From positions 5,487 to 69,486 of the forward strand of contig JBJDZJ010000191.1 in NCBI GenBank assembly GCA_051867915.1: DNA of 64,000 nucleotides. Reading direction: 5' to 3'. Below the pieces are notes generated by a model. That model was not told where the DNA came from. It saw only the letters and a list, made by a program, of their open reading frames with translations, and made no database searches. This document shows, one piece after another, positions 18,588 to 40,290 of this stretch. The position numbers and the translations under genes are program-made. Within the stretch, counting starts at the first letter, position 1. Each line of letters opens with the position of its first letter. Source of the DNA: Eubacteriales bacterium (lineage in GTDB: Bacteria > Bacillota > Clostridia > Oscillospirales > CAG-272).

Positions 18588-18604
18588 TACCCAAAGTTCC
18601 TTTC

Positions 18605-18625
18605 CCGCCCCGGGGCTCGGGGCGG
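18605..18625 (+). promoter_or_regulatory. GC-rich intra-operon stem-loop between the binding-protein and permease genes
   Basis: CCGCCCCG gggct CGGGGCGG (8-bp all-G/C stem) with no T-tract. This is typical of a processing/stability element rather than a terminator. Confidence 0.5.
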
Positions 18626-18666
18626 AAGGGATCCAATATCTGAACGAATGAGGATAAAGAAGAAAA

Positions 18667-19740: not shown

Positions 19741-19758
19741 CGGGAGGAGGTATTCTGT

Positions 19759-20877: not shown

Positions 20878-20887
20878 GATTCTTCCG

Positions 20888-20915
20888 GGATAACCGCATA
20901 GGAATGCGGTTATCC
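20888..20915 (+). promoter_or_regulatory. Intra-operon stem-loop between the permease and ATPase genes
   Basis: Perfect 11-bp stem GGATAACCGCA / TGCGGTTATCC with a 6-nt loop and no T-tract. Confidence 0.5.
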
Positions 20916-20932
20916 GCCAAAATCGGAGACTT

Positions 20933-23651: not shown

Positions 23652-23759
23652 ATAGATCTACCCCTCAATGGGAGGGGACCGGATTGCGAAAGCAATTGAT
23701 TTCGGATAGAGAAACGGGTTGTTCCATCCGGTGACTGAAGAAAGGTGTGGACAATACAC

Positions 23760-26700
23760 ATGAAAAGCAGAAGAATGACGGCTTGCGTCCTTGTTTTCCT
23801 TCTGGCGGGACTGACTGCCTGTACGGGGAACGGGTCGACAACAACCACGACGGCGGACACCTCCGATGTTTCTGCCACTACGCAGACAGGGCTTCCGCCC
23901 GTGACCTCTCCCGTCACGGCTCCTGTGACCGATACAAAGGAAGAGGGAAAGGTTACGCTGACCTTCGTGGATCAGGCGGGAATCACCTTTGTCTGTGACA
24001 AACGCTCGGGCGCGTCGGTAGAAGAGGGAAGTACGGTATCCTTCAGCCTGCAAAAATCGGTTTTTTATGAAGGAACGCCTGTTGTCACTGCCAACGGGGA
24101 AGTTCTGACCCCGTCGGACAACAGCTACTCGGTGACTCTGGAAGAGGATACCCGCATTGAGGTAACCGGCATCACGCTGATGGAATCGACCATGGAGGGC
24201 GGCGGAACCGACACCACCGATCCCTTTATCATTACCTCTCCGGTGGATCTGCTCTTCATTGCAGAGCAGGTCAATGCGGGCAATACCGTTTATTCGGAGG
24301 GCTATTACACCCTTGACGCCGATCTGGATTTTCTGGGCGAGGAGCTTGAAGTCATCGGCGACGGTCGGAATGAGTACGCCTACTTCTCGGGCTACTTCGA
24401 CGGAGCGGGTCATACGATCTCCAACTTCCGTCTGACCACCACCAATACCCAGTATGTGGGACTTTTCGGCATTCTTCAGGCCAATGTTTCCAATTCGGTG
24501 GGCGGTACGGTTTATATGCTGAACCTTAAGGATTATACCGTTTCGGCAGAGATCAAGGACGCCTCCATGTTCTGCGGTTCCTTTGTGGGCTACGGTATCG
24601 GCGGAAACCTTCTGCTGTGCAATGCGGAAAACGGTAAAATGGAAATCTACGCCGATTCCAACAATTTCTCTTATGTCGGCGGTCTTATGGGTCTTCAGCA
24701 GGCTCTGGATTACAACAATATGAGTTATCTGTCCTCTGTGACCTATTGCGCCTCCGATGTGGATATCAGCTGTCGGGATGGAATGACCTTCAGCGCCGGC
24801 GGAATTTCCGGCTATCTTGCCTGCTCCACCAATCTTGTCGTTGCCTCCATCAATAATTGCTACTTCACCGGTGATGTTCGGGGCGCTATGCGGACGGGCG
24901 GCATTACAGGCTATATGTCTTCCAATACCGGAATCGTCAATTGCTATTCTACCGGAATTGTCGGTGCGCAAAGCTCGGTTTCCGATCATGAGAATTCCGA
25001 ATATTATTGCTATGCCTACGCCGGAGGCGTTGTCGGTTGCGCATCGGAAAACAGTGTGGTTTCCGAGTGCTTTGCCACAGGCACGCTCTATTGCAAGGCG
25101 GAACTGGGATCTGCTTATGAAAAGATCGGCGGGGTTCTCGGCGGTGCGGAACCGGTAACCGAGGGCGCATATACTTCCTATGAGGCAACGGTGTACAACT
25201 GCATTTATGCCGAGGGCGGCACCGACGGGGACCTGAATCTGACCGACGGTGCGACCCTGCGGGAAAAGCTCCACTGGAACGACTGCGACTGGGTCTTCAA
25301 GGAAGGCTCCTATCCTACCGTCAATCTGACGGAGGACAATGAATACAGTTTTGATATCACCTTCAATTTCGATGGGACGGATAATCTGTCGGTTACCGAA
25401 TTCGATGCCTATATGCCTATGTATTTCTGGTACCTTGACGGCAGTCTTCCCACCGGTCTGGTAGGCGACGAAGGAGATACCCGGACATCCTACGGCTATT
25501 TCTTCGATCCCGAGCTGACGATGCCCCTTCCCGACGGATATGTCCCCACCCATACCATGACCATCTATGCCGCAACTTCCGACTACGCAGAGGTTGCCGG
25601 CGAATATGTGATTGTGACCTCCAATAAGGATCAGACCGTCCGTCTGACCCTGAATACCGACGGCAGCTTTACCTATACCGACGGAGCGACCCTTCTGACC
25701 TCCTACTTCCGCTACGACGGGCAGACGCTGGTCTTCGCAGACGCCCGCTTCGGACGATATGCCGAGAATACCCTCTCGATGGAAAAATATCAGTTTGTCG
25801 ACTTCATGGGCAGAGTCAAGGACGGAAAACTGACGATTTTCGGCGGAGTTGTCAACGATGATACCGAGTCGGTCACCCTGTTTACCGAGAAGAATCCCCT
25901 GATTGCGCTGTCCGTTGAGAAGATCCTGACCGGCGCCTATCGGTCAGGGAACATCCTGTACACCTTTGCTCCCGACGGAACGGGAACACGGACGGTCGAC
26001 GGCATGGTCAGCGACTTTACCTACACCCGGGATCAGAATGCCTTTGTTGTGACCCTCGGAGACAAGACGCTGTCCGGCAGTATTTCGGGTGATAAGCTGA
26101 CACTGGACGGAGGGGCGCTTACACCGAGCGACGCTTATATGGGCAGCTGGACCGTAAACTCCAAGGCGAACAAGGTCTTCACCTTTGACGGAGCGGGCGG
26201 CTGGAGCTATGAATACTACGGCTATCTGACTTCCGCCGGCAAGACGGTTCTGGAACGGAAATCGGGCAGTTATACCGTCAATTATGACGGAAGCCTTACC
26301 CTTTCGGGAGATTTCGGCGGAAATGCGAAATTTACCGACGGTACGCTCTCTGTCACGACCACAGAGGGCAGTTATACCTGCTACCGTCAGGGAAGCTACT
26401 ACGGAACATGGGTATATCCCGATTACGGCATGACCCTTTACCTGTACGGAATCGGGGAAAGCGGAGAAGGAATCGCCCGTGTGGAATATCTCTATGACAA
26501 CGGAACGGTGGAATTCTACGATCTGACCTATTCGATGGATAATCTGATCCCCGGTGTGATCTGCATCTATTACGACATGGATGTCTTCGGTTATCTTTCC
26601 TATGTCCCGGGTTCCGATACTTTGAACGCCACCGTTTATGTGGGACCGCTTGCCGTCTTCATGCAGAATGTCAGCCTCTGTCGGGAGGATGAATTCAAGG

Positions 26701-27965
26701 GTCAGTGGATCAGCGAAAAGGACGGTCTGACGCAGCTGGAATTCAACGGCTTCGGCAGTTATGAGACGGGTGGCAGACCCGGACTGTCGGGTGTTGTGAC
26801 AATCGACGGCCATTCGGTATCCTATTCCCTTGATGAGGCGACGCTGTCCGGGTCCTTCGTCTACAACGGAAAGCTCTACCTGATTTCCTACGATGAGACG
26901 AAATCTGCGCTGATCCTCACGGACGGAGGCAGTTCAACCGTATATCAGCGGAAGGATGCTTTCGGCAGTCTGACGCTTGCCGATGAAAGCGGACGGCTGT
27001 ACACCTTCGACGGCAGAGGAAATCTCGGCTCCATGGGTACCATGAGCATAACGGACGGCGACGGTAAGACGACGCTGTATCAGTATCGGCTGTCCGGCAG
27101 CGATCTGACCGTCTATCAGAGCGGCAGAAATGTGGGAAGACTGTACCGGGATGAAAAGACCAATGCCTACTGCCTGTCCCTGTCGGGAAATGCCAACAGA
27201 ACCCTGCGGATTAAGACCTCCTTCACCGGAACCTGGGGCATGAGCGGTTCGCTGGAAAATCTGGTGATCGGTACGATGGGATTGGACAATACGCTCGAAG
27301 GCAGAGTCAACGGAGAAAAAGTGACCTTCGTTTTGGAGGACGGTCATCTGACCTTCACCTATCTGGAGTCTCCATTCTATGTGATTGCGATCGGAGAGAG
27401 TGATCTGGTTATCAGCCAGCAGTTGGACTGGTACATGACCACCGATGGCATCTATTGCGCCCCCATTGACGATCTTTTCGGCACCTGGACCAACTCCCTT
27501 GGAGCATCCTATGAGTTTGACGGTGTGTCAAACAGTACCCTGACTTCCGGAACGGCTCAGTCCTGTTCGGGCGATAATGTGACCGGATACTTCTATATCT
27601 ACGAGAACGGGCAGTATATTTTGTGGACCGTTAGTGAAACCACCGGTGAGACCTTGCTCTATCGTCTGATTATGTGCGATCCCGATACACGGCGTGCCTT
27701 CATCAACGGCGATCGGGCGTTTACTGTGGAACAGGGCGACAATCTGTACAATGCCTCCGTTCGGGATGTGGACAGCGGTGTTGTTTATACCTTCGACGGA
27801 TTCGGAAAGGTCACGACCTCCGAGGGCGAGACCTACGATTATACGCTGACTTCTATCGACATGACCAACGGCATCGCCATCGTCAGAATAACAATGGGCG
27901 ACGAGGTTAAAACCGCGACCGTTGATTTCAGCAATTCACAGGATTATACCATGACTCTTCGGTAA
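23760..27965 (+). CDS. Large (~1401 aa) surface lipoprotein: Ig-like N-domain, GLUG-motif beta-helix-type region, then ~9 degenerate lipocalin-like repeats
   Basis: Start MKSRRMTACVLVFLLAGLTAC (lipobox) after GAAAGGTG. GLUG-type motifs YVGLFGI, VGGLMGL, AGGISGY, TGGITGY, AGGVVGC and IGGVLGG. The C-terminal half is built from ~90-aa units of the type G(T/S)W...(Y/F)TFDG.G. Confidence 0.85.
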   Translation: MKSRRMTACVLVFLLAGLTACTGNGSTTTTTADTSDVSATTQTGLPPVTSPVTAPVTDTKEEGKVTLTFVDQAGITFVCDKRSGASVEEGSTVSFSLQKSVFYEGTPVVTANGEVLTPSDNSYSVTLEEDTRIEVTGITLMESTMEGGGTDTTDPFIITSPVDLLFIAEQVNAGNTVYSEGYYTLDADLDFLGEELEVIGDGRNEYAYFSGYFDGAGHTISNFRLTTTNTQYVGLFGILQANVSNSVGGTVYMLNLKDYTVSAEIKDASMFCGSFVGYGIGGNLLLCNAENGKMEIYADSNNFSYVGGLMGLQQALDYNNMSYLSSVTYCASDVDISCRDGMTFSAGGISGYLACSTNLVVASINNCYFTGDVRGAMRTGGITGYMSSNTGIVNCYSTGIVGAQSSVSDHENSEYYCYAYAGGVVGCASENSVVSECFATGTLYCKAELGSAYEKIGGVLGGAEPVTEGAYTSYEATVYNCIYAEGGTDGDLNLTDGATLREKLHWNDCDWVFKEGSYPTVNLTEDNEYSFDITFNFDGTDNLSVTEFDAYMPMYFWYLDGSLPTGLVGDEGDTRTSYGYFFDPELTMPLPDGYVPTHTMTIYAATSDYAEVAGEYVIVTSNKDQTVRLTLNTDGSFTYTDGATLLTSYFRYDGQTLVFADARFGRYAENTLSMEKYQFVDFMGRVKDGKLTIFGGVVNDDTESVTLFTEKNPLIALSVEKILTGAYRSGNILYTFAPDGTGTRTVDGMVSDFTYTRDQNAFVVTLGDKTLSGSISGDKLTLDGGALTPSDAYMGSWTVNSKANKVFTFDGAGGWSYEYYGYLTSAGKTVLERKSGSYTVNYDGSLTLSGDFGGNAKFTDGTLSVTTTEGSYTCYRQGSYYGTWVYPDYGMTLYLYGIGESGEGIARVEYLYDNGTVEFYDLTYSMDNLIPGVICIYYDMDVFGYLSYVPGSDTLNATVYVGPLAVFMQNVSLCREDEFKGQWISEKDGLTQLEFNGFGSYETGGRPGLSGVVTIDGHSVSYSLDEATLSGSFVYNGKLYLISYDETKSALILTDGGSSTVYQRKDAFGSLTLADESGRLYTFDGRGNLGSMGTMSITDGDGKTTLYQYRLSGSDLTVYQSGRNVGRLYRDEKTNAYCLSLSGNANRTLRIKTSFTGTWGMSGSLENLVIGTMGLDNTLEGRVNGEKVTFVLEDGHLTFTYLESPFYVIAIGESDLVISQQLDWYMTTDGIYCAPIDDLFGTWTNSLGASYEFDGVSNSTLTSGTAQSCSGDNVTGYFYIYENGQYILWTVSETTGETLLYRLIMCDPDTRRAFINGDRAFTVEQGDNLYNASVRDVDSGVVYTFDGFGKVTTSEGETYDYTLTSIDMTNGIAIVRITMGDEVKTATVDFSNSQDYTMTLR

Positions 27966-28040: not shown

Positions 28041-30860
28041 ATGAAAACGAAACATTTTCCCACTCGTCTGACTGCGCTGATCCTCAGTGTGTTCATGTTA
28101 GTGCCGACACTGTTGACGGCATGCAAGAGTGGCGATGGGGAAACTACGACCTCCGACAAAACCACAAGTATCGGTGCGTCAAGTTCCGCTGCGACTACGG
28201 TTTCCGACGGCACTCAGCAGAGCCCCGATACCACGCCTCCGACGACAGGTATGGTTTCCTATACCGTCCTTGTGAAAACACAGGGAGGAATGCCCATATC
28301 GGGAGCCAAAGTTGTGATGACCGACCCTCAGGGAATTGAGGTTGCCAACTCCACCACCGATGAGAGCGGCAAGTATACCACATGGCTGAATCCTGCCGAA
28401 TATTCGGTGACCGTCTCCGGTCTGAAAGAGGGATTCCAGGCACCCACCGAGCCGGTGAAGACCTCCAAAGAGGGCGGAGAACAGACCGTCACGATCCAGA
28501 CCTCGGTTATCACTACTGAGGCGCCTTCCGGTCTCGCATATCAGGTGGGCGACATGATGTATGACTTCACCTTTGTCGACGACAACGGTAACGAGGTGAA
28601 ACTGACCGACATCCTGAAAACCAAGAAACTGGTTGTCCTGAACTTCTGGGCAACCTGGTGCGGACCCTGTAAGTCGGAATTCCCTGCCATCCAGGAAGCG
28701 TACGAAGAATATGAGGATTCGGTGGAAATCATCGCCATGAGCATCTCCGATAACCGGGGTGCCTGCCTTGAATTTAAACAAAGCGGCGGTTATACCTTCC
28801 GTTTCCTTCCCGATTTCGGCTTGAATGAGGCGTTCAAGGCGTTTGGCAACGGCGCAATCCCCTATACCCTGTTTATCGACCGTTACGGTATGTTTGTCAA
28901 CTATGTGCAGGGTGCCGATCCCAGCGCAGAAGCCTGGAAAACGGAATTTGAGGGCTATACCTCTGATAACTATGTTCAGAAGCCCGGTTCTCCCATTTCT
29001 GCCGATACCTATCCCGAAACTTCCGGCTCCGAGGATGTGGAGAAGCCCGATGTGTCCATGCCCGCCTCTTCTGAGATTGAGGCTGCCATCAACGGTTCCG
29101 GATTCAAGGGAAGCTATACGGCTCCTGCTTCCGATACCATTTGGCCCTGGGTTCTGTCCGAGGATAAACAGAGCATCGTTCCCGGCAACATCGGAAAACA
29201 TTCATCTGCCGCTATGATTACCACCGAAGTCACCCTTAAGAAAGGGCAGGCTCTGGCATTTGATTTCCGGGCGTCCATCGAACGGGACAGCCAGTCGGTC
29301 TACGACTATGATATGTTCGTCATCTATGTAGACGGCAGCGCGGTTCAGAACTTCTACGGTAAGCACAGTGATTGGGAAACCTGCTACGCCTATGTGGCGG
29401 ATGCCGACGGAACCTATTCCGTCACCCTCTACTACGCAAAGGACGATTCCGACTGGTATCTGCCCGATGGGGAAGAATATCTGAATATCCGCAATATGCG
29501 GATTGTCGGTGTGGACGACATCGCCTCCTCCGGTGTTTCGCTGAATATCCGCCGCCCTGCAACCACCGGGGTCAATACCGCTGATAATCCCGCCACCAGT
29601 TATCTGAACTATGTTGATGTGGTTCTGAATAAGGAGGACGGCTTCTACCATGTTGGAACGGCAGACGGTCCCATTCTTCTGGCAGGTATCATGAACGGAA
29701 CCGCCTGGTCTCCGACTTCTGCTTACACTCTTGCAACCAACGGCTATCTGATCATCGGCGGTGTGGATTACGAAAGTTCGGTTACCAAATATGCTTGGCT
29801 GGAAAAGCACAGTACACTTCCTTATTGCCCGGTAGATGCGAAACTGGCAGATCTTCTGGATCTGATCGCCTCCTCTGTGGGTGAAGGACCCGACCATGAC
29901 AAGGAATGGTTGGAGTTCTGTTGCTACTACGATCACTATGGTACCGGCAAGGGCATCACCGAGGTTCGTGATGTCCGTCAGGGCATCAGCATGGACAGTT
30001 CCTTTACCGCAACCGAGGGAACCAATCATGTGGTTGTCAATCAGGTCCTGGTTCCCAGAGGATTCTACTATGAATTCAAGCCCACCAAGAGCGGTGTTTA
30101 TGTCTTCCATTCGGTCAACCCCGCTGATGATGAAATTGATACCATCGCATGGCTGATGGCTTCCGACGGAACATTCCTGGATGAGGATAACGACAGCTAT
30201 GACGGAACCAACTTCCAGATCAAGAGTTATTGTAAGGCAGGAGAAAGCTACTATCTTCTGACGGCATTCAATGCGACCGACGCACTGGGCGAGTATGACT
30301 TTGTGATTGAATATTTGGCGGAAACAGCTGATGATTTCATCCCCTGCACCTTCCAGTATACCACCAATGAGAGCGGCTCCCAGATTCTGATTGACCGCCG
30401 TTACAATGTGCATGTTGCATTGGGTACAGACGGCTACTATCATCAGGTGCTTTCCTATAAAGCAGACGGAACCCCCGTTCTGGACTACTCTGAGCATGGC
30501 TATGTCTATGTGGATTTTGTGGGTGTTTCGATCTTTACTTCCTATATCCCCTGGATTGGCAGTTACTGCACGCTCCAGAAGTATATTGAGGAAAACGGCA
30601 AGAGCAACAACGGCGGCTTTGACTTTACCATCCGTACCGACAGTGAGGGTACTTCTTTGGCAGAACTTGGCAACCATCAGGCTGAAATGGAAGCTTATCT
30701 GGCAGAAGCCCTGAAGGCGACCGGTGATGAGTACGGCTTTGTGAAGGCGGATGAACAGTTGGTTGAGATTCTGAACTCTACATTGATCCGCCTCTACGGC
30801 GAACCCAGTGTAGTGGATCAGTGGCTGATGTTCTGCTACTATTACAGACACTTAAACTGA
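28041..30860 (+). CDS. Lipoprotein (939 aa): prealbumin-like beta-sandwich + TlpA/ResA-like thioredoxin (WCGPC) + ~600-aa uncharacterised region with a PPC-like domain and two copies of a G(F/Y)YH module
   Basis: Start MKTKHFPTRLTALILSVFMLVPTLLTAC after AAAGGAAG. CarboxypepD_reg-like segment YTVLVKTQGGMPISGAKVVMTDPQGIEVANSTTDESGKYTTWL. Thioredoxin core KKLVVLNFWATWCGPCKSEFP (WCGPC at 28656-28670). Confidence 0.85.
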   Translation: MKTKHFPTRLTALILSVFMLVPTLLTACKSGDGETTTSDKTTSIGASSSAATTVSDGTQQSPDTTPPTTGMVSYTVLVKTQGGMPISGAKVVMTDPQGIEVANSTTDESGKYTTWLNPAEYSVTVSGLKEGFQAPTEPVKTSKEGGEQTVTIQTSVITTEAPSGLAYQVGDMMYDFTFVDDNGNEVKLTDILKTKKLVVLNFWATWCGPCKSEFPAIQEAYEEYEDSVEIIAMSISDNRGACLEFKQSGGYTFRFLPDFGLNEAFKAFGNGAIPYTLFIDRYGMFVNYVQGADPSAEAWKTEFEGYTSDNYVQKPGSPISADTYPETSGSEDVEKPDVSMPASSEIEAAINGSGFKGSYTAPASDTIWPWVLSEDKQSIVPGNIGKHSSAAMITTEVTLKKGQALAFDFRASIERDSQSVYDYDMFVIYVDGSAVQNFYGKHSDWETCYAYVADADGTYSVTLYYAKDDSDWYLPDGEEYLNIRNMRIVGVDDIASSGVSLNIRRPATTGVNTADNPATSYLNYVDVVLNKEDGFYHVGTADGPILLAGIMNGTAWSPTSAYTLATNGYLIIGGVDYESSVTKYAWLEKHSTLPYCPVDAKLADLLDLIASSVGEGPDHDKEWLEFCCYYDHYGTGKGITEVRDVRQGISMDSSFTATEGTNHVVVNQVLVPRGFYYEFKPTKSGVYVFHSVNPADDEIDTIAWLMASDGTFLDEDNDSYDGTNFQIKSYCKAGESYYLLTAFNATDALGEYDFVIEYLAETADDFIPCTFQYTTNESGSQILIDRRYNVHVALGTDGYYHQVLSYKADGTPVLDYSEHGYVYVDFVGVSIFTSYIPWIGSYCTLQKYIEENGKSNNGGFDFTIRTDSEGTSLAELGNHQAEMEAYLAEALKATGDEYGFVKADEQLVEILNSTLIRLYGEPSVVDQWLMFCYYYRHLN

Positions 30861-30884
30861 CTCTCCTGTACGGAAGTTCCCTCT

Positions 30885-30926
30885 CCGATCCTTCCATCGG
30901 CGGAAAACGGTCGATGGAAGGATCGG
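30885..30926 (+). promoter_or_regulatory. Long perfect stem-loop between the two thioredoxin-lipoprotein genes
   Basis: 15-bp perfect stem CCGATCCTTCCATCG / CGATGGAAGGATCGG with a 12-nt loop. It is followed by GAATCCGG, so there is no T-tract. Confidence 0.5.
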
Positions 30927-30987
30927 GAATCCGGACCATGTAATGATCTCGGATCACGATGATTATACTACGAATGGAGAAAATACA

Positions 30988-31893
30988 ATGAAACGAACCA
31001 CATCCCGAATTTTGGCGGCATTGCTCTCTGTTACCCTTGCACTGCCCGTTTTGGTGTCCTGTCAGGAAAATACGGTGGAGAACCCTTCGTCGTCTACCTC
31101 TGCACAGACCGAAATGACTGCGGTAACAACCGAAGCGAATTTGGAGCCCGGCGATCCGGTTCCCTATTCCTTTACGGTCAAGACAACGGGAGGATTGGCA
31201 CTCTCCGGAATAGAACTGATTCTGACCGATTCCGAAGGCAATCAGGTGGCAGATGCGACCACCGATAAGAGCGGAAAATGCAGTGTAACATTGCCTGCCT
31301 ATGAATATACCGTGTCCCTGAAGGGACTTAAGGCAGGATATTCGCTTCCTGCAGGCTCTGTCAAAACCACCAGAGAGGGCGGACAGGTGAAAGTTCCGGT
31401 GGAAACCGGGGTCATCACCCAAAAGGAACCCAATACCCACAGAAGTTACTCAGAAGGGGACATTATGTATGATTACACCTTCACGGTAGACGGGGAGGAA
31501 GTCAAACTGTCCGAATTGCTGGAAACCAAAAAACTGGTGGTCATCAACTTCTGGGCAACCTGGTGCGGTCCCTGCGTGTCTGAATTTCCTGCCATTGAAG
31601 AGGCATATGCCGATTATAAGGATTCGGTGGCAATCATCGCTTTGAGTATCTCCGATAATGAGTTTGCATGTTCCAATTTCAAAAAACGGGGAAAGTACAG
31701 CTTCACTATGATGCCGGAAGACGGTATCGGTATTTATTCCCGATTTGACAAGGGTGGCATCCCGTTGAGCATCTATGTTGACCGCTACGGAATGTATGTG
31801 GGCTATGATCTGGGCGCAGATACCAGTGTGGATTCCTGGAAGGCTAAATTCAAACGGTATACCGCTGACAACTATGTCCAAAGAATCGAATAA
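30988..31893 (+). CDS. Lipoprotein (301 aa): prealbumin-like beta-sandwich + TlpA/ResA-like thioredoxin (WCGPC)
   Basis: Start MKRTTSRILAALLSVTLALPVLVSC after GGAGAAAA. YSFTVKTTGGLALSGIELILTDSEGNQVADATTDKSGKCSV, then KKLVVINFWATWCGPCVSEFP (WCGPC at 31561-31575). By eye roughly 60 percent identical to the first ~300 aa of the preceding gene. Confidence 0.85.
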   Translation: MKRTTSRILAALLSVTLALPVLVSCQENTVENPSSSTSAQTEMTAVTTEANLEPGDPVPYSFTVKTTGGLALSGIELILTDSEGNQVADATTDKSGKCSVTLPAYEYTVSLKGLKAGYSLPAGSVKTTREGGQVKVPVETGVITQKEPNTHRSYSEGDIMYDYTFTVDGEEVKLSELLETKKLVVINFWATWCGPCVSEFPAIEEAYADYKDSVAIIALSISDNEFACSNFKKRGKYSFTMMPEDGIGIYSRFDKGGIPLSIYVDRYGMYVGYDLGADTSVDSWKAKFKRYTADNYVQRIE

Positions 31894-32040
31894 TCGGTCA
31901 TTCCATATCCTTCTTTTGAGGGCAACCTGCTTTCGGATGGGATGCGTTCCCCTCTGTATTGGCTGTCCGACCGAAAGGATGAATTTGTATCTTACCCGAA
32001 GGGGTTTCCGTCGGGTGTGAATATAGAAAGGAAATAAATC

Positions 32041-34080
32041 ATGAAAAAGCACAAGAAACTTCTTCTCAGTCTGGCAGTTCTTTGCCTGACAACCATGGTG
32101 TTGGCTTCCTGTGGCGGTGGAGAAGGCAATACGACCACCAAGTCGGATTCGACTCAAACCACCACGACTGCGGCAGTCACACCCGGTGCATCCACCACAA
32201 ATCCTGCCACTTCTCCCGATCCTTCTACCGATGAAAAGGCATATGTGTTCACCGTCGTCTGCGGCGATACCAATCAGCCTGTCAGCGGTGCGCAGGTTCA
32301 GATCTGCAAAGGCGATGAATTCTGCCTGATGCCCGTAGCAACCGATTCCGACGGTAAGGCCAATTATGTTCTCACCGGCGGCAATGACTACGGCGAGTAC
32401 GATGTCCATATCATCGGAGGCATTCCCGAAGGATACACCTTCGACAATGCTTCGGTGAAGACAACTGCGGACACCCACAATTATACCCTGACCCTGGTGA
32501 AGTCCGGAGAGGAAACTTCTCCTAAAACATCCGGAGAGGCAACCGGCGCACCTACGACTACCAATCCTCCTGTCACCAATCCTCCTGTCACCAATCCTCC
32601 TGCTACCAATCCTCCTGTCACCAATCCTCCCGCTACTAATCCCCCTGCCACCAATCCCCCGACTCCCACCACATCGGCTCCCATCATTACTACGACGAAG
32701 CCCGCAGTGACGACCCAGCCGGGAACCGACAATCCCCCTGCAGCCTGCCAGCACACTTTTGTCAACGAGATCTGCACCAAGTGCGGCGAAACCAAAACAT
32801 ACAATTACACCCTGAAAGTGGTCTACGACTATGACTGCGAGGATGCAGACGGTGTTTCCCACAAAGCGGGCGATCCCATCTCCGGAGTAGAGATGGTATT
32901 CACCAACGGTGAGATGGATCATCTGTATGCCAAGGGTACCACCGATAAAAACGGTGAGATCACCTTTACGGCTCCCAAGTATGTGGAGACTCAAGTCTAT
33001 GACGGCGTAAAGACCGAAGTTGCCGGATTTACCATCACCGTCACAGGCGGAATGCCCGAGGGCTTCATGCACGATCCGCTTCTGGCGTTCCAGCCCGGTG
33101 CCACGACGCATACCATTTCCTTCTATCCCAAGCCGGTTCAGGGAGAGCGGACCGCTTTCAATCCCGATACTCTGAAAGCAGGAGTTACGGTAAAGGTTTC
33201 TCTCGGCGAAGCTCGAATGGACGATATTGATGATTTCTGGCATACTCCCCAGGACGATTCTCTCTACTATTATGCTTTTCGTCCGACCAAGCAGAGCGAT
33301 GTGGGTGTTTACCGTGTCACCATCACCAATCTGAAGGGTGCTTCCTCTGTTTATATCGGAAACTACCCCAACTCCGGATACGGCTATGTCGCTTATTCTC
33401 CCGATTACTCTGACAGTGGTGCGAATCCTTCTTTTGAATTTATCATTGAGGATACCTACCTGAAGAACAGCGATGGCGAATGGACCTTTGATAACAAGTG
33501 GCTGTTCGGTGTCCGTGCGGATGACGCAAATGCCACCTATCCCGTTACATTCGATCTGAAGATCGAGCGGATCAGAGACATTGTCCCCGGTCAGGATGTC
33601 CCGATTTATGACTATGTGTACCCCGATGTTCCCGCCAATGCACCAAAGGCAGATGCCATCACCGGTTCTGTTGACGGAAAGACTTTGGGTTATGTATCTA
33701 CCGATGTGGAACTGGTCAAGGACAGCAAGGGCTACTACCATGTCGGTTCTGTTGACGGTCCCATGGTTATGCTGCTTATCAGCAGTGCAAACCGGATTCT
33801 CGGAAGCGAGGGTCTGACCTTCTGTAATGTCAATACATATTCGGGTGCGGAAAACCTGAGTGCATCTACCTACGATGAGGCAACCAACACCTATACCATT
33901 TACAAGTACGAAAGTATGCTTCAGCAGTACGGTACCCTTTGTAATGAAGACGGTGCTTATCCCGTGAACGATCAGCTCCTTGACTTCCTGAAGCTGTGGG
34001 TTTCTCAGAAGGCAAGCACGGTTCCTGCGACGGTGGATAAGGATCACGCATATCTGTATGCTTGCTCCATCTATCAGTAA
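32041..34080 (+). CDS. Lipoprotein (679 aa): prealbumin-like beta-sandwich + TNPP(V/A) linker + uncharacterised region ending in the same G(F/Y)YH...CxxY module as 28041-30860; no thioredoxin domain
   Basis: Start MKKHKKLLLSLAVLCLTTMVLASC after AAAGGAAA. YVFTVVCGDTNQPVSGAQVQICKGDEFCLMPVATDSDGKANYV. The C-terminal KDSKGYYHVGSVDGPMVMLL ... PVNDQLLDFLKLW ... AYLYACSIYQ parallels KEDGFYHVGTADGPILLAG ... PVDAKLADLLDLI ... WLEFCCYYDHY in the 939-aa protein. Confidence 0.8.
   Translation: MKKHKKLLLSLAVLCLTTMVLASCGGGEGNTTTKSDSTQTTTTAAVTPGASTTNPATSPDPSTDEKAYVFTVVCGDTNQPVSGAQVQICKGDEFCLMPVATDSDGKANYVLTGGNDYGEYDVHIIGGIPEGYTFDNASVKTTADTHNYTLTLVKSGEETSPKTSGEATGAPTTTNPPVTNPPVTNPPATNPPVTNPPATNPPATNPPTPTTSAPIITTTKPAVTTQPGTDNPPAACQHTFVNEICTKCGETKTYNYTLKVVYDYDCEDADGVSHKAGDPISGVEMVFTNGEMDHLYAKGTTDKNGEITFTAPKYVETQVYDGVKTEVAGFTITVTGGMPEGFMHDPLLAFQPGATTHTISFYPKPVQGERTAFNPDTLKAGVTVKVSLGEARMDDIDDFWHTPQDDSLYYYAFRPTKQSDVGVYRVTITNLKGASSVYIGNYPNSGYGYVAYSPDYSDSGANPSFEFIIEDTYLKNSDGEWTFDNKWLFGVRADDANATYPVTFDLKIERIRDIVPGQDVPIYDYVYPDVPANAPKADAITGSVDGKTLGYVSTDVELVKDSKGYYHVGSVDGPMVMLLISSANRILGSEGLTFCNVNTYSGAENLSASTYDEATNTYTIYKYESMLQQYGTLCNEDGAYPVNDQLLDFLKLWVSQKASTVPATVDKDHAYLYACSIYQ
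32560..32664 (+). repeat. Seven tandem 15-bp units (ACCAATCCTCCTGTC consensus) encoding (TNPPV/A)x7
   Basis: Read directly: units start at 32560, 32575, 32590, 32605, 32620, 32635 and 32650, each with 0-5 substitutions relative to the consensus (the last two units are the most diverged). In frame within the 32041-34080 CDS. Confidence 0.95.
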
Positions 34081-34107
34081 TTCCGACGGTTTCATCCTAC
34101 AAAAAGA

Positions 34108-34321: not shown

Positions 34322-35920
34322 TCATTCGCCGTCCAAAGCGGGAGCGATGGCGGCAATGAGCTGATCGTATGTTACCGATCCGGTGCGTCGGAAGATGATC
34401 TTGCCTTCCTGATCCACAATTACCGTGACGGGAAGGGCGTCCGACTTGCCGATCATCTCCAGAACGGTTTGATTCTCCGCCTGCGTCTGGGCAGTATCCA
34501 GAACGAATCCGACCTTCCAGTCACTCCAGCCCTTGTTCTCAATGAAAGCATCTACCGGCTCGGTGACCAGTCCGTGAATGGCGACCACCGTCAGATCGTC
34601 GGCAAATTCGCCGGAAAGCTGTTCAAAGTAGGGCAGTTCGTTGACGCAGGGACCGCACCAGGTCGCCCAGAAGTTGATGACCACGATCTTTCCCTGATGT
34701 TCCGACAGGATGAAATCGGGATCGCCGCCTGCGCCGGGCAGGTTGAAATCGGGACAGTAGTTGCCGACCTGATAGCCGTAGACCTTTTCGTTCTCGTCCG
34801 TATCGGTGGTCGGTGGCGTGACGGGATCGTCCGGCACGGTCTTTTCTCTGTCGTAGATGTTGTAGTACCAGAGTGCCGTCAGCAGGACCGCAACGGCAAG
34901 AACCCCGGAGACGATCTTCAAAATCATGCCTCTGCGTCGGATTTTGGCGTTGGTTTCGGCAATTTTTGCTTCATCGACGGCATTGTCTTCCGATTTCACC
35001 CCTGTGGCGGTTTCTGTGGGGATGAAATACTTGGAGCCGCTCCAGTGGATGGCCTTGGTGGGACAGACCGGAATACAGCCGCCGCAGTGGATGCACTCGT
35101 GATCGCCCACATGGCGGATGTCCATCTTGCAGGTGGTGACGCACAGTCCGCAGGAGACGCATTTGTCTTTATCCAGCTTGACGCCGATCAGCGCCAGCTT
35201 GCAGAAGAAGCCGTAAATGGCGCCCAGGGGACAGAAGAAACGGCAGAAGAATCGGAAAATGAAGATGCTTGCCACGATAAATCCCACCAGCAGACAGAAC
35301 TTCCAGGTGAACAGCGGTCCCAGCATGGGGAAGAGATCGGTATTGTTCTTGTTGGACAGCAGACCGATGGCACCTTCAAGGGTTCCGGCGGGGCAGATGT
35401 ATTTGCAGAATCCCGGCACCGCCAGCTTATCCATAAAGGCAAGCGGGATCATGATGACCAGCGCAACCAGAATCACATACTTGAAATAGGAGAAAATACG
35501 GGTGAATCGGTTCTTTTTCAGCTTGGGAGAGGGGATTTTGTGGAGCAGTTCCTGAATCAGCCCGAAGGGGCAGAGAAATCCGCAGATGGTCCGTCCCAGA
35601 AGCAGTCCGAAGAGGATGATGATACCGAAAACATAGGCGGGAAGCTTGGTGTTGGAGCTTGCCAGCGCATTCTGGAGGGCGCCCAGCGGGCAGGCACCCA
35701 CCGCTCCCGGGCAGGAATAACAGTTCAGACCCGGCAGGCAAAGGTATTTGGTGGAACCGGTGTAGATTTTCCCCGAGACGAAGCCTTTGAGATTGGCGTT
35801 GTACAGCATGGCGGCGTACAGCTGAATCAGCCGACGCTTGGTGGGCAGATAGCGGCGAATCCTGCCCTCTTTTTTTACTTGCTCCCCGGCTTGCGGGGTT
35901 TCTTTTTCAACGGTTTTCAT
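34322..35920 (-). CDS. Membrane polyferredoxin (NapH/NosR-like CX3CP motifs + 2x[4Fe-4S]) fused via a TM helix to a C-terminal TlpA-like thioredoxin domain (WCGPC)
   Basis: Motifs in order: CYSCPGAVGACP (res 67-78), CGFLCP (113-118), CKYICP (172-177), CRFFCP (226-231), CVSCGLCVTTC...CIHCGGCIPVCP (254-287). Then TM MILKIVSGVLAVAVLLTALWYY (332-353), and KIVVINFWATWCGPCVNELP (WCGPC at 34646-34660). Starts 18 nt after the upstream gene's stop. Confidence 0.85.
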   Translation of the reverse strand: MKTVEKETPQAGEQVKKEGRIRRYLPTKRRLIQLYAAMLYNANLKGFVSGKIYTGSTKYLCLPGLNCYSCPGAVGACPLGALQNALASSNTKLPAYVFGIIILFGLLLGRTICGFLCPFGLIQELLHKIPSPKLKKNRFTRIFSYFKYVILVALVIMIPLAFMDKLAVPGFCKYICPAGTLEGAIGLLSNKNNTDLFPMLGPLFTWKFCLLVGFIVASIFIFRFFCRFFCPLGAIYGFFCKLALIGVKLDKDKCVSCGLCVTTCKMDIRHVGDHECIHCGGCIPVCPTKAIHWSGSKYFIPTETATGVKSEDNAVDEAKIAETNAKIRRRGMILKIVSGVLAVAVLLTALWYYNIYDREKTVPDDPVTPPTTDTDENEKVYGYQVGNYCPDFNLPGAGGDPDFILSEHQGKIVVINFWATWCGPCVNELPYFEQLSGEFADDLTVVAIHGLVTEPVDAFIENKGWSDWKVGFVLDTAQTQAENQTVLEMIGKSDALPVTVIVDQEGKIIFRRTGSVTYDQLIAAIAPALDGE

Positions 35921-35938: not shown

Positions 35939-36850
35939 TTATCCCAGACCGATACACTCGGTGCAGATGTTGGTTGCTTTTACGAACACATCCCGGACGC
36001 TCTCATTGAAGCATCCGAACAGAACCAGTCCCACGCCCACGCAAACAAGGGCAATTCGCAAAACAAAAATCCATTTTCGGCTGTTTGCAGGCTTTGAGAC
36101 GGCAACAGAGGATTTATCTCCGATCAGGGTCAGATGCTTTTCGATGTCGATGATCTTTTGAATCTGACGGTCCCGAAGGATTACATAGACGATCGCCGCC
36201 AGGAGCATTCCACCCACAAAGGGAAGGGAGAAGAGCGCCATTTTCACCACCTCGCCGTTGAGATCGGTGTTGGGAAAGTGGGAAAAATCCAGCAGGTAGC
36301 AGAAGGGGAAGAGGGCGAGAATCAGGCAGATCCCGGATGCGATCCCAAGAAGCAGTTTGGATTGCTTCAGCAGTCCGCGATGCTCGGACTGTGTAGCCGA
36401 AAATTCGGCTAAATTTTCGGCGTCTTTTTGATTGGCGGGAGCATTCGGAAGGCGCTTTGACAGCCGATCCCGGGTCATGTAGGCGGGGGTCTTCCTCCGC
36501 TTTTCGGGGACGGTCGGGCAGATCAGACTGTACACCATGCCGAAAAGGGTGACTGCCAGCCATAAAATCAGAACGGGGAGAACAAAGGCGAATTTTTCGG
36601 CGACGATCTCCCGACTGTAAATCTGGATACCGGCCTTGGCCTTGGAGACGGCAAGACGGGTCTGGGACTCATTCAGCCCCTGACGGATGGCTTCCTGCTC
36701 GGCGGCTTCTGCCGCCTGAACTCTTGCCTCGGTTCCTTCCCGATAGATGGAAGCGGTTTGAAAGATGAACAGGGCGCCCAGCGCCAGCGTCAGCAGAAGG
36801 AAGAGAAGATCATATGCCCACCGCAGCGGGCGTTTTCGGTTATCGGACAT
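35939..36850 (-). CDS. Five-TM membrane protein with C-terminal CxxC tail (...ATNICTECIGLG)
   Basis: The ATG at 36850 (MSDNRKRPLRW) lies 11 nt after AAAGGA. The GTG 9 nt upstream, used by the track, is too close to the RBS. Five hydrophobic helices. CTEC is encoded at 35954-35965. No family recognised. Confidence 0.7.
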   Translation of the reverse strand: MSDNRKRPLRWAYDLLFLLLTLALGALFIFQTASIYREGTEARVQAAEAAEQEAIRQGLNESQTRLAVSKAKAGIQIYSREIVAEKFAFVLPVLILWLAVTLFGMVYSLICPTVPEKRRKTPAYMTRDRLSKRLPNAPANQKDAENLAEFSATQSEHRGLLKQSKLLLGIASGICLILALFPFCYLLDFSHFPNTDLNGEVVKMALFSLPFVGGMLLAAIVYVILRDRQIQKIIDIEKHLTLIGDKSSVAVSKPANSRKWIFVLRIALVCVGVGLVLFGCFNESVRDVFVKATNICTECIGLG

Positions 36851-37028
36851 AATCCGCACCGTCCTTTCGGCATCTTTTTTGCAGAAGAGGTCAAAGACTC
36901 TGCATACGCATGTATTTTACCATAAACCGCCGCAAAAGTCAACTTGATTTTGCAAATTGCCCGAATAATTTGTTCCGAAGGGCATCTTTGCGAATACAGC
37001 GGATTTTCGGAAATTTTTTCAAAACCCA

Positions 37029-40261: not shown

Positions 40262-40290
40262 TAAATTTTGTATGAAGAGGAGATGAGAAA

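What the first reader, a model, noticed from the sequence alone, without database searches (positions are those of the whole stretch)
28041..34080. Three consecutive lipoprotein paralogues built from shuffled modules, including an uncharacterised G(F/Y)YH...CxYY module present three times
Seen:
- All three proteins open with a lipobox and then a ~80-aa prealbumin/CarboxypepD_reg-like sandwich (YTVLVKTQGG.., YSFTVKTTGG.., YVFTVVCGD..).
- Proteins 1 and 2 then carry near-identical thioredoxin domains.
- Proteins 1 and 3 carry a PPC-like domain (YYEFKPTKSGVYVF...GESYYLLTAF...YDFVIEY versus YYYAFRPTKQSDVGVYRVTI..).
- The closing module has the pattern (D/K)G(F/Y)YH(V/Q)...DG(P/T)...PV(D/N)..L.D(L/F)L.L...(W/Y)L..C.(Y/I)Y. 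It occurs twice in protein 1 (about 29631-29945 and about 30421-30857) and once in protein 3 (about 33718-34077).

I cannot place this module in a known family. Its pairing with extracellular thioredoxins suggests a substrate-recognition role. That role is inference.
Basis: partly seen in the sequence, partly recalled or inferred. Interest (0 to 1): 0.6.

Follow-up and report, generated by a model that had tools for sequence, protein, structure and literature searches.

The report
New domain in surface thioredoxin lipoproteins
Three neighbouring membrane-anchored surface proteins of an uncultured gut Clostridia bacterium share a real, previously unannotated protein domain with no detectable known relative; it always sits in loci with surface disulfide-reducing enzymes, usually near a large surface protease, but what it does is still unknown.

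Summary
The core observation holds. The G(F/Y)YH...CxYY module is a real, independently folding alpha/beta domain of about 135-165 aa. It occurs twice in protein 1 and once in protein 3.

- **Homology:** deep profile-profile comparisons of the three copy types give E = 1e-27 to 3e-19.
- **Structure:** an AlphaFold2 model reaches pLDDT 95.6.
- **No known relative:** nothing in Pfam, NCBIfam, PDB sequences, or Foldseek against PDB and BFVD.
- **Family size:** at least 637 cluster representatives. All 83 genomic loci recovered come from uncultured Clostridia, mostly in animal-gut samples.
- **Architecture:** protein 1 has a conserved ~950-aa layout: lipobox, Ig-like domain, TlpA-like thioredoxin (CxxC), jelly-roll, module A, beta domain, module B.
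- **Neighbours:** usually a second module-bearing lipoprotein, a NapH-like Fe-S membrane protein fused or adjacent to a thioredoxin, a membrane protein ending in CxxC, and often a C5a-peptidase-type protease with LRR repeats.

Three details of the finding were wrong. The two thioredoxin domains are 56% identical, not near-identical. The "PPC-like" label is unsupported. A jelly-roll domain was missed.

My best reading, which is inferred, is that the module targets or docks a surface disulfide reductase that works with proteolysis and peptide uptake.

The parts
28041..30860 (+). P1: 939-aa lipoprotein. Layout: lipobox (Cys28), Ig/prealbumin-like domain, TlpA-like thioredoxin (WCGPC at aa 206-210), jelly-roll, module A, beta domain, module B.
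   Evidence: ORF. Pfam and NCBIfam. The same architecture is conserved in 150 representatives and 81 loci.
28272..28499 (+). P1 Ig/prealbumin-like domain (CarboxypepD_reg, aa 78-153)
   Evidence: E = 4.2e-8, 33.9 bits, above the Pfam cut-off of 32.3.
28542..28922 (+). P1 TlpA/ResA-type thioredoxin domain (aa 168-294), CxxC = CGPC at aa 207-210
   Evidence: AhpC-TSA 9e-19, Redoxin 3e-18. ResA subfamily 1.8e-22, below its cut-off. Both cysteines are conserved in the family alignment.
29061..29525 (+). P1 jelly-roll-like beta domain (aa ~341-495).
   Evidence: Conserved block in alignment A4. Found in 81 of 83 loci by jackhmmer. No Pfam hit. "Jelly-roll" is my own reading of the sequence pattern. 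The only structural hint is beta strands in the low-confidence model.
29538..29942 (+). Module copy A (P1 aa ~500-634). Motifs: DGFYHVG, DGP, PV, WLEFCCYY.
   Evidence: A-only HMM E = 1e-50. AF2 model pLDDT 95.6, pTM 0.89. No PDB or BFVD fold match.
29973..30350 (+).
   Evidence: Conserved in 82 of 83 loci. No Pfam hit even at E = 10, so PPC membership is not shown.
30363..30857 (+). Module copy B (P1 aa ~775-939). Carries an insertion of about 50 aa relative to A.
   Evidence: hhalign A vs B families: E = 9e-24, 140 columns. The A-only HMM hits aa ~877-937 of P1 at 3.5e-5.
30988..31893 (+). P2: 301-aa lipoprotein with an Ig-like domain and a TlpA-like thioredoxin (WCGPC). It has no module.
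   Evidence: 45% identical to the N-terminal 312 aa of P1. The thioredoxin domains are 56% identical.
32041..34080 (+). P3: 679-aa lipoprotein. Layout: Ig-like domain, TNPP(V/A) repeat linker, a short cysteine-containing stretch (C236, C245, C248), second Ig-like domain, beta-rich region, module C.
   Evidence: Orthologues with the same layout in L004-L007.
33661..34077 (+). Module copy C (P3 aa ~541-679). Motifs: KGYYHVG, DGP, YPV, AYLYACSIY.
   Evidence: A-only HMM 6e-7. hhalign A vs C families E = 1e-27.
34322..35920 (-). P5: NapH-like polytopic Fe-S membrane protein. It has Fer4_5, three CxxxCP motifs and ferredoxin-type cysteine motifs. A fifth TM helix is followed by an extracytoplasmic TlpA-like thioredoxin (CGPC).
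   Evidence: A homologue lies next to the P1-type gene in 30 of 53 loci with at least 8 kb downstream.
35939..36859 (-). P6: multi-pass membrane protein ending in a CD1871A-like CxxC motif (ICTECIGLG)
   Evidence: NF040920 at 31.1 bits, just under its cut-off of 32. TM helices and CTEC at aa 299. Homologues in 30 loci.
23745..27965 (+). P0: 1406-aa lipoprotein directly upstream, with weak GLUG and DUF5640 signals
   Evidence: Homologues lie next to P1-type genes in L002, L004-L007 and L022.
7244..16027 (+). 2927-aa cell-envelope proteinase: S8 with a PA insert and Fn3-like domain, then BspA-type LRR_5 repeats
   Evidence: PDB sequence matches to C5a peptidase, SpyCEP and cell-envelope proteinase A, E = 5e-61 to 1e-53. 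S8 is present in 19 of 35, and LRR in 25 of 35, fully flanked P1-type loci.
16059..23303 (+). Opp-type peptide ABC transporter: 842-aa SBP_bac_5 protein, two permeases and two ATPases
   Evidence: A related binding protein or permease lies near P1-type genes in a minority of loci, 6 of 83. One search also shows an SBP_bac_5 gene in L003.

Best explanation
**What it is (shown)**
- The module is a previously unannotated alpha/beta domain of about 135-165 aa that folds on its own. I call it the DGYYH domain.
- It has three paralogous types:
  - Type A follows a jelly-roll domain.
  - Type B forms the C-terminus of the same protein.
  - Type C sits at the end of a second lipoprotein.
- It occurs in surface lipoproteins of uncultured Clostridia, most of them from animal guts.
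- P1 belongs to a conserved ~950-aa family with this layout: lipobox, Ig-like spacer, TlpA-like thioredoxin with CxxC, jelly-roll, module A, beta domain, module B.

**How it most likely works (inferred)**
- The locus encodes a cell-surface disulfide-reducing arm of a protein-foraging system.
- Electrons leave the cell through the NapH-like Fe-S membrane protein, which is fused to a thioredoxin (P5). The CxxC membrane protein P6 may assist.
- They pass by thiol-disulfide exchange to the tethered thioredoxins of P1 and P2.
- These reduce disulfide bonds in extracellular proteins.
- The C5a-peptidase-type protease can then cut those proteins, and the Opp transporter imports the peptides.
- The non-catalytic C-terminal domains, including the DGYYH modules of P1 and P3, act as binding modules. 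They hold either the disulfide-bonded substrate or a partner of the complex.
- The four signature motifs form one packed core, and the conserved cysteine is buried rather than redox-active.
For: **The domain is real**
- The three copy types are homologous at E = 1e-27 to 3e-19.
- An independent HMM finds exactly the three copies in the window.
- The AF2 model has pLDDT 95.6 and pTM 0.89.
- Between orthologues the modules are as conserved as the catalytic thioredoxin domain: module A 54-71%, thioredoxin 53-73%.

**It is unannotated**
- Pfam and NCBIfam give nothing on the window proteins, on 48 full-length members or on 85 isolated domains.
- PDB sequence and profile searches give nothing.
- Foldseek against PDB and BFVD gives best E above 2 and TM-scores (normalised to the query) of 0.20 or less.
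- Source annotations read only "hypothetical" or "redoxin domain-containing protein".

**Family and context**
- 637 representatives at E <= 1e-3. Of the top 150, 132 have two module copies and 15 have three.
- 47 of 48 carry a Redoxin/AhpC-TSA domain, and both CxxC cysteines are conserved.
- 53 of 65 loci have a second module-bearing ORF downstream.
- Of the 35 loci with at least 8 kb on both sides, 20 have the NapH-like protein, 19 an S8 protease, 25 LRR_5 repeats, and 33 at least one of these.
- The protease is of the C5a-peptidase / cell-envelope-proteinase type. In this window it sits beside an Opp operon.
- NapH-like proteins are a recognised modular transmembrane electron-transfer unit (PMC8238504).
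- P5 has a fifth TM helix ahead of its thioredoxin domain, which fits an outside location.

**The motifs form one core**
- Covariation analysis (Meff 287) predicts contacts H44-P104, V105-C134, A55-C134 and L53-L131.
- The cysteine is replaced by Ala, Ser or Val in some B and C copies.
Against: - There is no experimental or structural-homology evidence for any ligand.
- CEP/LRR genes are absent within 10 kb in about a quarter of the fully flanked loci, and the NapH-like gene in about 40%. Opp genes are near only 6 of 83 loci. The link to proteolysis is therefore frequent but not universal.
- The DGYYHVG..DGP motif of type A is 100% invariant. That is more than a generic binding module needs and could point to catalysis or cofactor binding.
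- The CxxC motif varies widely across the family (CSWC, CGPC, CTYC, CSPC). The redox direction, reductase versus oxidase or isomerase, is therefore not established.
Confidence: 0.4

Rival explanations
1. **Docking or assembly module.** The DGYYH domains do not bind substrate. They bind another component of the system, for example the BspA-type LRR repeats of the protease or of separate LRR proteins. This would assemble the thioredoxin lipoproteins, P3-type lipoproteins and the protease into one surface complex, in the manner of cohesin-dockerin pairs.
For: - Module-bearing proteins come in sets of two to three per locus.
- LRR_5 proteins are the most frequent neighbour, in 25 of 35 fully flanked loci. 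Some of those loci show an LRR hit without an S8 hit, for example L013, L041 and L045.
- LRRs are classical protein-binding scaffolds (established knowledge).
- The strict invariance of a small motif cluster in type A suits a conserved protein-protein interface.
Against: - About 30% of the fully flanked loci have no LRR gene within 10 kb.
- No co-variation or complex prediction was done.
- Types B and C have diverged at the motif (His only 58% conserved in B), so they would need different partners.
Confidence: 0.25
2. **Client-specific maturation or repair system.** The thioredoxin lipoproteins keep the cell's own surface proteins reduced or correctly folded, as ResA does for cytochrome c or Etrx1/2 for MsrAB2. 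Candidate clients are the giant cysteine-containing lipoprotein P0 or the protease. The modules would recognise these endogenous clients.
For: - The characterised TlpA/ResA/Etrx-type proteins I know of serve endogenous clients (my own knowledge; the Etrx paper PMC3914529 was listed but only its abstract start was seen).
- P0 has 23 cysteines and lies directly upstream. P0-like proteins recur in 6 loci.
Against: - No Msr, cytochrome-maturation or other known client genes appear in the window or in the annotated loci.
- P0-like genes occur in only 6 of 83 loci.
- The organisms are gut anaerobes, where little oxidative damage is expected at the surface (inference).
Confidence: 0.15
3. **The module is itself catalytic or binds a cofactor or metal.** The invariant Asp, Tyr-Tyr and His of type A, and possibly the Cys, would form an active site.
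For: - D, Y, H, V, G, P, W and C are 100% conserved in 78 type-A copies whose overall identity to the window copy is about 30-55%.
- The motifs cluster in space according to covariation.
Against: - His is replaced by Tyr, Arg or Cys in 42% of B copies. Asp and His are also lost in some C copies, including Asp to Lys in P3 of this window.
- Cys is substituted by Ala, Ser or Val and is predicted to contact aliphatic residues, which is typical of a buried core residue.
- No similarity to any enzyme family or fold was found.
Confidence: 0.12
4. **Chance resemblance or compositional artefact.** The three segments would share only a few aromatic-rich motifs.
For: In-window BLAST between copy B and the others is weak. 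Copy B against P3's copy gives E = 2.8, and copy A matches only the last 38 residues of copy B.
Against: - Family-level profile comparisons give probabilities of 99.2-99.8%.
- An independent HMM recovers all three copies and nothing else in the window.
- The AF2 model is confident.
Confidence: 0.01

Closest known systems
TlpA / ResA / CcmG-type extracytoplasmic thioredoxins, including the surface thioredoxin lipoproteins Etrx1/Etrx2 of Streptococcus pneumoniae
   Same: - Membrane-tethered lipoprotein with a Redoxin/AhpC-TSA thioredoxin fold.
- CxxC active site facing outward.
- Expected to take electrons from a membrane protein and pass them on by thiol-disulfide exchange (PMC3914529 listed).
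   Different: - Known members, as far as I know, are essentially single-domain proteins of about 150-200 aa.
- P1-type proteins add about 600 aa of unannotated domains: jelly-roll, two DGYYH modules and a beta domain.
- No CcdA/DsbD gene lies nearby. The conserved neighbour is a NapH-like Fe-S protein fused to a thioredoxin.
- No Msr or cytochrome-maturation client genes are present.
- Scores against the ResA, TlpA and DsbE NCBIfam models are far below their cut-offs.
NapH-like (PF12801, Fer4_5) transmembrane electron-transfer modules (Meheust et al. 2021, eLife; PMC8238504)
   Same: P5 has the Fer4_5 membrane core with CxxxCP motifs and ferredoxin-type clusters. The family is described as a modular unit that carries electrons across the membrane to diverse extracytosolic redox partners.
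   Different: In that survey the extracytosolic partner is a flavinylated FMN-binding domain. Here it is a TlpA-like thioredoxin domain, fused or encoded next door, together with a membrane protein ending in CxxC. The passages I read do not describe a NapH-thioredoxin pairing.
Cell-envelope proteinase plus Opp proteolytic systems of Gram-positive bacteria (lactocepin PrtP / C5a peptidase family)
   Same: The window encodes an S8 protease with PA insert and Fn3-like domain that matches C5a peptidase, SpyCEP and cell-envelope proteinase A. An Opp-type peptide transporter lies directly beside it.
   Different: The protease carries BspA-type LRR_5 repeats. It is accompanied by thioredoxin lipoproteins and DGYYH-domain lipoproteins, which are not part of the classical PrtP/Opp system as I know it.
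Bacterial pre-peptidase C-terminal (PPC, PF04151) domain
   Same: The P1 region at aa ~645-770 is beta-rich and shows a pattern resembling PPC, with motifs of the Y.F.P...G.Y type and G..YY...F (sequence reading only).
   Different: There is no Pfam hit to PPC even at E = 10 for the window segments or for two homologues, and none in 48 full-length members. The P1 and P3 regions are not demonstrably homologous to each other.

Membership tests
TlpA/ResA-like extracytoplasmic thioredoxin (Pfam Redoxin PF08534 / AhpC-TSA PF00578) | Thioredoxin-fold domain scoring above the Pfam gathering cut-off | tested here: met
   P1: AhpC-TSA 68 bits (cut-off 26), Redoxin 66.4 (26.6). P2: Redoxin 54.4, AhpC-TSA 51.1. 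P5: 61.8 and 60.7.
TlpA/ResA-like extracytoplasmic thioredoxin (Pfam Redoxin PF08534 / AhpC-TSA PF00578) | CxxC active-site motif | tested here: met
   WCGPC in P1 and P2 and CGPC in P5. Both cysteines are conserved in the 48-member family alignment. The motif varies across the family: CSWC, CGPC, CTYC, CSPC.
TlpA/ResA-like extracytoplasmic thioredoxin (Pfam Redoxin PF08534 / AhpC-TSA PF00578) | Extracytoplasmic location (signal peptide, lipobox or membrane anchor) | tested here: met
   One N-terminal hydrophobic segment ending in LTAC, LVSC or LASC in P1, P2 and P3. This is sequence-based only.
TlpA/ResA-like extracytoplasmic thioredoxin (Pfam Redoxin PF08534 / AhpC-TSA PF00578) | Electron supply from a CcdA/DsbD-type membrane protein | tested here: not met
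   No DsbD/CcdA hit among the window ORFs scanned or in the annotated loci L001-L003. A NapH-like Fe-S protein is the conserved neighbour instead. A CcdA elsewhere in the genome cannot be excluded.
ResA / TlpA / DsbE equivalogs (NCBIfam NF002854, NF047696, TIGR00385) | Score above the curated family cut-off | tested here: not met
   ResA 80 bits against a cut-off of 170. TlpA 45 against 230. DsbE 47 against 123.
PPC domain (PF04151) | Significant match to the Pfam model | tested here: not met
   No hit at E <= 10 for P1 aa 641-775, P3 aa 366-545 or two homologues. None in 48 full-length members at E <= 1e-3.
Any known domain family for the G(F/Y)YH...CxYY module | Sequence match to Pfam-A, NCBIfam or a PDB chain | tested here: not met
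   There are no significant hits and no recurrent weak hits across 85 members.
Any known domain family for the G(F/Y)YH...CxYY module | Fold match to a solved or predicted structure | tested here: inconclusive
NapH-like Fe-S membrane protein (PF12801 Fer4_5) for P5 | Fer4_5 match above cut-off, polytopic membrane core, CxxxCP and ferredoxin-type cysteine motifs | tested here: met
   Fer4_5 63.6 bits (cut-off 22), two stretches. TM helices and three CxxxCP motifs. The NapH/MauN subfamily model TIGR02163 scores below its cut-off, 70 against 213.
Cell-envelope proteinase / C5a peptidase (S8 with PA insert and Fn3-like domain) for ORF 7244-16027 | S8 catalytic domain with PA insertion followed by an Fn3-like domain, and similarity to solved cell-envelope proteinases | tested here: met
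   Peptidase_S8 2.7e-41, PA 1.5e-12, fn3_5 2.5e-7. C5a peptidase 4.7e-61, SpyCEP and cell-envelope proteinase A about 1e-54.

The most novel reading that the evidence does not exclude
Uncultured gut Clostridia carry a previously unrecognised cell-surface "reductive proteolysis" machine.
- A NapH-like Fe-S membrane protein, rather than DsbD/CcdA, drives extracytoplasmic thioredoxin lipoproteins.
- The new-fold DGYYH domains of these lipoproteins capture disulfide-rich host or dietary proteins, or dock onto the protease's LRR array.
- A C5a-peptidase-type protease can then degrade those proteins, and Opp can import the peptides.

The DGYYH domain would then be a new fold and a new class of substrate- or partner-binding module.
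Probability: 0.25. Interest if true: 0.75.

Novelty: new variant of a known kind. Interest (0 to 1): 0.55.

Why it matters
- **An unannotated family in abundant gut bacteria.** The family is sizeable, with at least 637 clusters at 50% identity. It is confined to uncultured Clostridia (labelled Eubacteriales, Oscillospiraceae, Christensenellaceae and similar), mostly from animal-gut samples. About 600 aa of each protein has no annotation at all.
- **A possible new fold.** The module gives a high-confidence model with no detectable structural neighbour, so it is a candidate new fold and merits a new Pfam entry.
- **A possible new electron route.** The conserved neighbourhood suggests that a NapH-like Fe-S protein, instead of DsbD/CcdA, supplies surface thioredoxins. 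This has not, to my knowledge, been characterised.
- **A possible link to protein foraging.** The neighbourhood also ties surface disulfide reduction to a large surface protease. This bears on how strict anaerobes digest disulfide-rich host or dietary proteins.
- **Testable.** Both ideas can be tested with recombinant proteins.

Tried and rejected
**Searches that found little or nothing**
- Word-indexed homologue searches were nearly blind to this family. The P1 C-terminal half gave one hit, the P3 C-terminal half none, and a 29-sequence type-C profile only 26 unnamed fragments. Only the exhaustive HMM search revealed the family.
- PDB sequence searches, single and profile, and Foldseek against PDB and BFVD gave nothing.
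- Scanning 85 isolated domains one by one against Pfam and NCBIfam at E <= 5, looking for recurrent weak hits, gave nothing recurrent.
- Literature searches for CD1871A, for the DGYYH motif, and for thioredoxin-protease combinations gave nothing relevant.
It worked with 11 closer sequences.

**Computations that failed or were unavailable**
- The single-sequence AF2 model of P1 aa 321-939 was useless, with pLDDT 34.

**Ideas rejected**
- PPC identity of the beta domain: no Pfam support, and P1 against P3 only weakly similar.
- A redox-active or catalytic role for the conserved cysteine: it is replaced by Ala, Ser or Val in paralogues and is predicted to pack against Val105 and Ala55.
- An Asp-His-Cys triad: His is not conserved in type B.
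- The long antisense ORFs across the region, such as 31450-34263 on the minus strand: I take them to be shadow ORFs of the plus-strand genes. This is a judgement only.

Full report
**1. What is in the sequence**

The region holds three co-directional genes:
- P1, 28041-30860, 939 aa
- P2, 30988-31893, 301 aa
- P3, 32041-34080, 679 aa

A fourth lipoprotein gene, P0 (23745-27965, 1406 aa), lies directly upstream. A strong hairpin at 34109-34139 follows P3. Each protein starts with one hydrophobic segment ending in a lipobox: LTAC, LVSC or LASC.

Domain assignments from Pfam and NCBIfam:
- P1 has a prealbumin/Ig-like domain (CarboxypepD_reg, aa 78-153, above the gathering score) and a TlpA/ResA-type thioredoxin domain (aa 168-294) with WCGPC.
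- P2 has the same two domains.
- P3 has a SpaA-type prealbumin domain (aa 76-151) and a second Ig-like region around aa 275-313.
- Nothing in Pfam or NCBIfam covers P1 aa 320-939 or P3 aa 370-679.

P1 and P2 are 45% identical over their shared 312 aa. Their thioredoxin domains are 56% identical. They are paralogues, not near-identical copies.

**2. Is the module real?**

Within the window, BLAST already links P1 aa 522-630 to P3 aa 549-678 at E = 2e-5. Small two-sequence profiles give A vs C 1.6e-7, A vs B 6e-6 and B vs C 6e-4.

The decisive tests use sequences from other genomes.
- An exhaustive HMM search with the five available copies found 637 cluster representatives at E <= 1e-3, and 279 at <= 1e-10.
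- Of the top 150, 132 have two copies and 15 have three. The copies sit at roughly aa 500-630 and at the C-terminus of lipoproteins of 870-1050 aa.
- An HMM built only from type-A copies of other organisms, run against all six-frame ORFs of the window, hits P1 copy A (1e-50), P1 copy B (3.5e-5) and P3 copy C (6e-7). Nothing else scores below E = 4.9.
- Alignments of 78 type-A, 77 type-B and 71 type-C copies compare at probabilities of 99.2-99.8%, with E = 9e-24, 1e-27 and 3e-19.

The domain begins about 20-30 residues before the G(F/Y)YH motif. Type B carries an insertion of about 50 residues.

**3. Structure**

AlphaFold2 on P1 aa 494-645 with an 85-sequence alignment gave mean pLDDT 95.6 and pTM 0.89.
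- The model has an N-terminal beta-meander of five strands.
- Four helices follow, with short strands between them.
- A final long strand carries the C.YY motif.

My mean-field covariation analysis (541 copies collected, 331 kept after gap filtering, Meff 287) predicts these contacts:
- His44 with Pro104
- Val105 with Cys134
- Ala55 with Cys134
- Leu53 with Leu131
- strand 1 paired with the last strand

Conservation by type:
- In type A, the residues D, Y, H, V, G, P, W, C and Y of these motifs are 100% conserved.
- In type B, His is kept in only 58% of copies and Cys in 86%, with Ala or Ser as replacements.
- In type C, Cys is kept in 92%, with Ala, Val, Ile or Phe as replacements.

The cysteine therefore looks like a buried core residue rather than a redox or catalytic one.

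**4. Is it known?**

No.
- Pfam-A (models up to 2025) and NCBIfam give nothing for the window proteins, for 48 full-length relatives or for 85 isolated domains. Even at E = 5 there is no recurrent weak hit.
- PDB sequence and profile searches give nothing.
- Foldseek of the confident model against PDB has best E = 5.2 and query-normalised TM-scores of 0.20 or less. Against BFVD the best E is 2.1.
- Public names are only "hypothetical protein" or "redoxin domain-containing protein [Clostridia bacterium]".

**5. Family, taxonomy and neighbourhood**

In 48 full-length members, 47 carry Redoxin/AhpC-TSA, and both CxxC cysteines are conserved.

A scan of one genome per GTDB species returned 108 confirmed matches, of which 80 loci were kept. 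All are metagenome-assembled genomes. Nearly all are labelled Clostridia, Eubacteriales, Oscillospiraceae, Christensenellaceae, Faecousia or Coproplasma, and two are labelled Bacteroidaceae. Where the record title names a source it is ruminant, deer, yak or chicken gut. The closest locus (L004, 72% identity in module A) has the same gene order as the window.

I annotated six-frame ORFs of all 83 loci by iterated searches with the window's domains. This gives a consistent picture.
- A P1-type gene has the layout Ig-like, thioredoxin, jelly-roll, module, beta domain, module.
- It is followed in 53 of 65 loci by a second lipoprotein with an Ig-like domain and a module.
- Some loci add a third protein with a thioredoxin, several Ig-like domains and a module, and often a small Ig-like protein of about 150 aa.
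- On the opposite strand there is usually a NapH-like Fer4_5 membrane protein, either fused to or followed by a thioredoxin, and a ~260-350-aa membrane protein ending in CxxC.

Counts:
- Of 53 loci with at least 8 kb downstream, 30 have the NapH-like gene.
- Of 35 loci with at least 8 kb on both sides, 19 have an S8 protease, 25 have LRR_5 repeats, 20 have the NapH-like gene, and 33 have at least one of these.

In the window the protease (7244-16027, 2927 aa) has S8 with a PA insert, an Fn3-like domain and BspA-type LRRs. It matches C5a peptidase, SpyCEP and cell-envelope proteinase A at E = 5e-61 to 1e-53. An Opp-type peptide transporter follows it directly.

Between orthologues the modules are as conserved as the thioredoxin domain, 54-71% against 53-73%.

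**6. Mechanism**

Shown:
- Tethered extracytoplasmic thioredoxins with CxxC.
- A conserved neighbour that combines a NapH-type Fe-S membrane core, an extra TM helix and an outward-facing thioredoxin.
- No DsbD/CcdA among the ORFs I scanned in the 64-kb window.
- Frequent co-location with a cell-envelope proteinase.

Established elsewhere: NapH-like proteins act as modular transmembrane electron conduits (PMC8238504). Cell-envelope proteinase plus Opp is the classical Gram-positive protein-foraging pair (my knowledge).

Inferred:
- Electrons flow from P5, possibly with P6, to the P1 and P2 thioredoxins.
- From there they reach disulfides in extracellular proteins, which then become accessible to the protease.
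- The DGYYH modules, with the jelly-roll and beta domains, provide binding to substrate or to partners.

I put about 0.4 on this overall picture. I put about 0.9 on the narrower claim that the module is a genuine, unannotated, independently folding domain family.

Rivals:
- A docking role, for example on the LRR array (0.25).
- An endogenous-client maturation system (0.15).
- A catalytic or cofactor-binding module (0.12).
- Chance similarity, which is refuted.

**7. Corrections to the finding**
- The "PPC-like" label is unsupported. There is no Pfam hit at E = 10, and P1 against P3 in that region gives hhalign probability 9%.
- The thioredoxin domains are 56% identical, not near-identical.
- The module boundaries extend N-terminally.
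- A conserved jelly-roll-like domain (P1 aa ~341-495) and a second Ig-like domain in P3 were missed.

**8. Verdict**

The core finding is real and not explained by any database. It is a new domain family, possibly a new fold, embedded in a new multi-domain variant of extracytoplasmic thioredoxin lipoproteins. The family has a conserved and suggestive gene neighbourhood. The function remains inferred.

Noticed in passing
window 34322-35920 (-) and 35939-36859 (-); also L001-L003 and about 30 other loci: A NapH-like Fe-S membrane protein is fused to an outward-facing TlpA-like thioredoxin. Next to it lies a multi-pass membrane protein ending in a CD1871A-like CxxC motif (ICTECIGLG). This conserved pair could be a DsbD/CcdA-independent route that delivers electrons to surface thioredoxins. 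In some genomes the thioredoxin is a separate gene. The membrane core is 66% identical between the window and L001, while the lipoproteins are only about 30% identical.
   Followed up: partly
window 7244-16027 (+): A 2927-aa C5a-peptidase / cell-envelope-proteinase-type S8 protease carries a long BspA-type LRR_5 array. Similar giant S8-LRR genes lie next to P1-type genes in 19 of 35 fully flanked loci.
   Followed up: partly
window 16059-23303 (+): An Opp-type peptide ABC transporter lies between the protease and P0. Its SBP_bac_5 binding protein is unusually long, at 842 aa.
   Followed up: no
window 23745-27965 (+): P0 is a 1406-aa lipoprotein with 23 cysteines and only weak GLUG and DUF5640 signals. 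Homologues lie next to P1-type genes in L002, L004-L007 and L022. Its function is unknown.
   Followed up: partly
window 29061-29525 (+), P1 aa ~341-495: A conserved beta domain that I read as jelly-roll-like sits between the thioredoxin and module A. It has no Pfam or NCBIfam match and carries a conserved W.TCYAYV motif that resembles the module's W..C.YY motif.
   Followed up: partly
window 32558-32657 (+): A 15-nt tandem repeat (6.5 copies, 85% matches) encodes the TNPP(V/A) linker of P3. This linker is absent or very different in orthologues (0-35% identity).
   Followed up: partly
P1-type genes in loci L001-L083: The thioredoxin active-site motif varies widely across the family: CSWC (about 26), CGPC (about 19), CSPC (10), CTYC (8) and others. 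The redox properties may therefore differ between lineages.
   Followed up: no
window 32746-32787 (+), P3 aa 236-249: A short cysteine-containing stretch (CQHTFVNEICTKCG) follows the repeat linker of P3. One type-C protein from another locus has CGNCG ahead of its module. It might be a small metal-binding knuckle.
   Followed up: no
window 53447-54799 (+) and 55734-59822 (+): A bacterial serpin (Pfam Serpin, 2e-80) and a 1362-aa GH92 alpha-mannosidase-family protein with an F5/8 type C domain lie about 20 kb downstream. The serpin is of interest given the large serine protease in the same window.
   Followed up: no
window 87-797 (+): An ORF matches phage capsid protein families (Phage_capsid_4, 3e-15) at the window's left edge, next to uronate and mannonate catabolism genes.
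   Followed up: no
window 42657-46433 (+), 46617-48293 (+), 40162-41247 (-): Large ORFs of 1258, 558 and 361 aa have no Pfam match. They lie beside an MMPL-family transporter (40291-42660).
   Followed up: no
window 28179-34263 (-): Very long antisense ORFs (340, 549 and 937 aa) overlap P1-P3. I take them to be shadow ORFs of the plus-strand genes. They were not searched against any protein database.
   Followed up: no
window-wide: The word-indexed protein database did not return the window's own P1 or P3. Its best hit to P1's C-terminal half was a 31%-identical protein, and P3's C-terminal half found nothing. The closest genome locus, a Eubacteriales MAG (EHIM02_bin.018), is 72% identical in module A. 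The source organism appears to be poorly represented in public data.
   Followed up: partly
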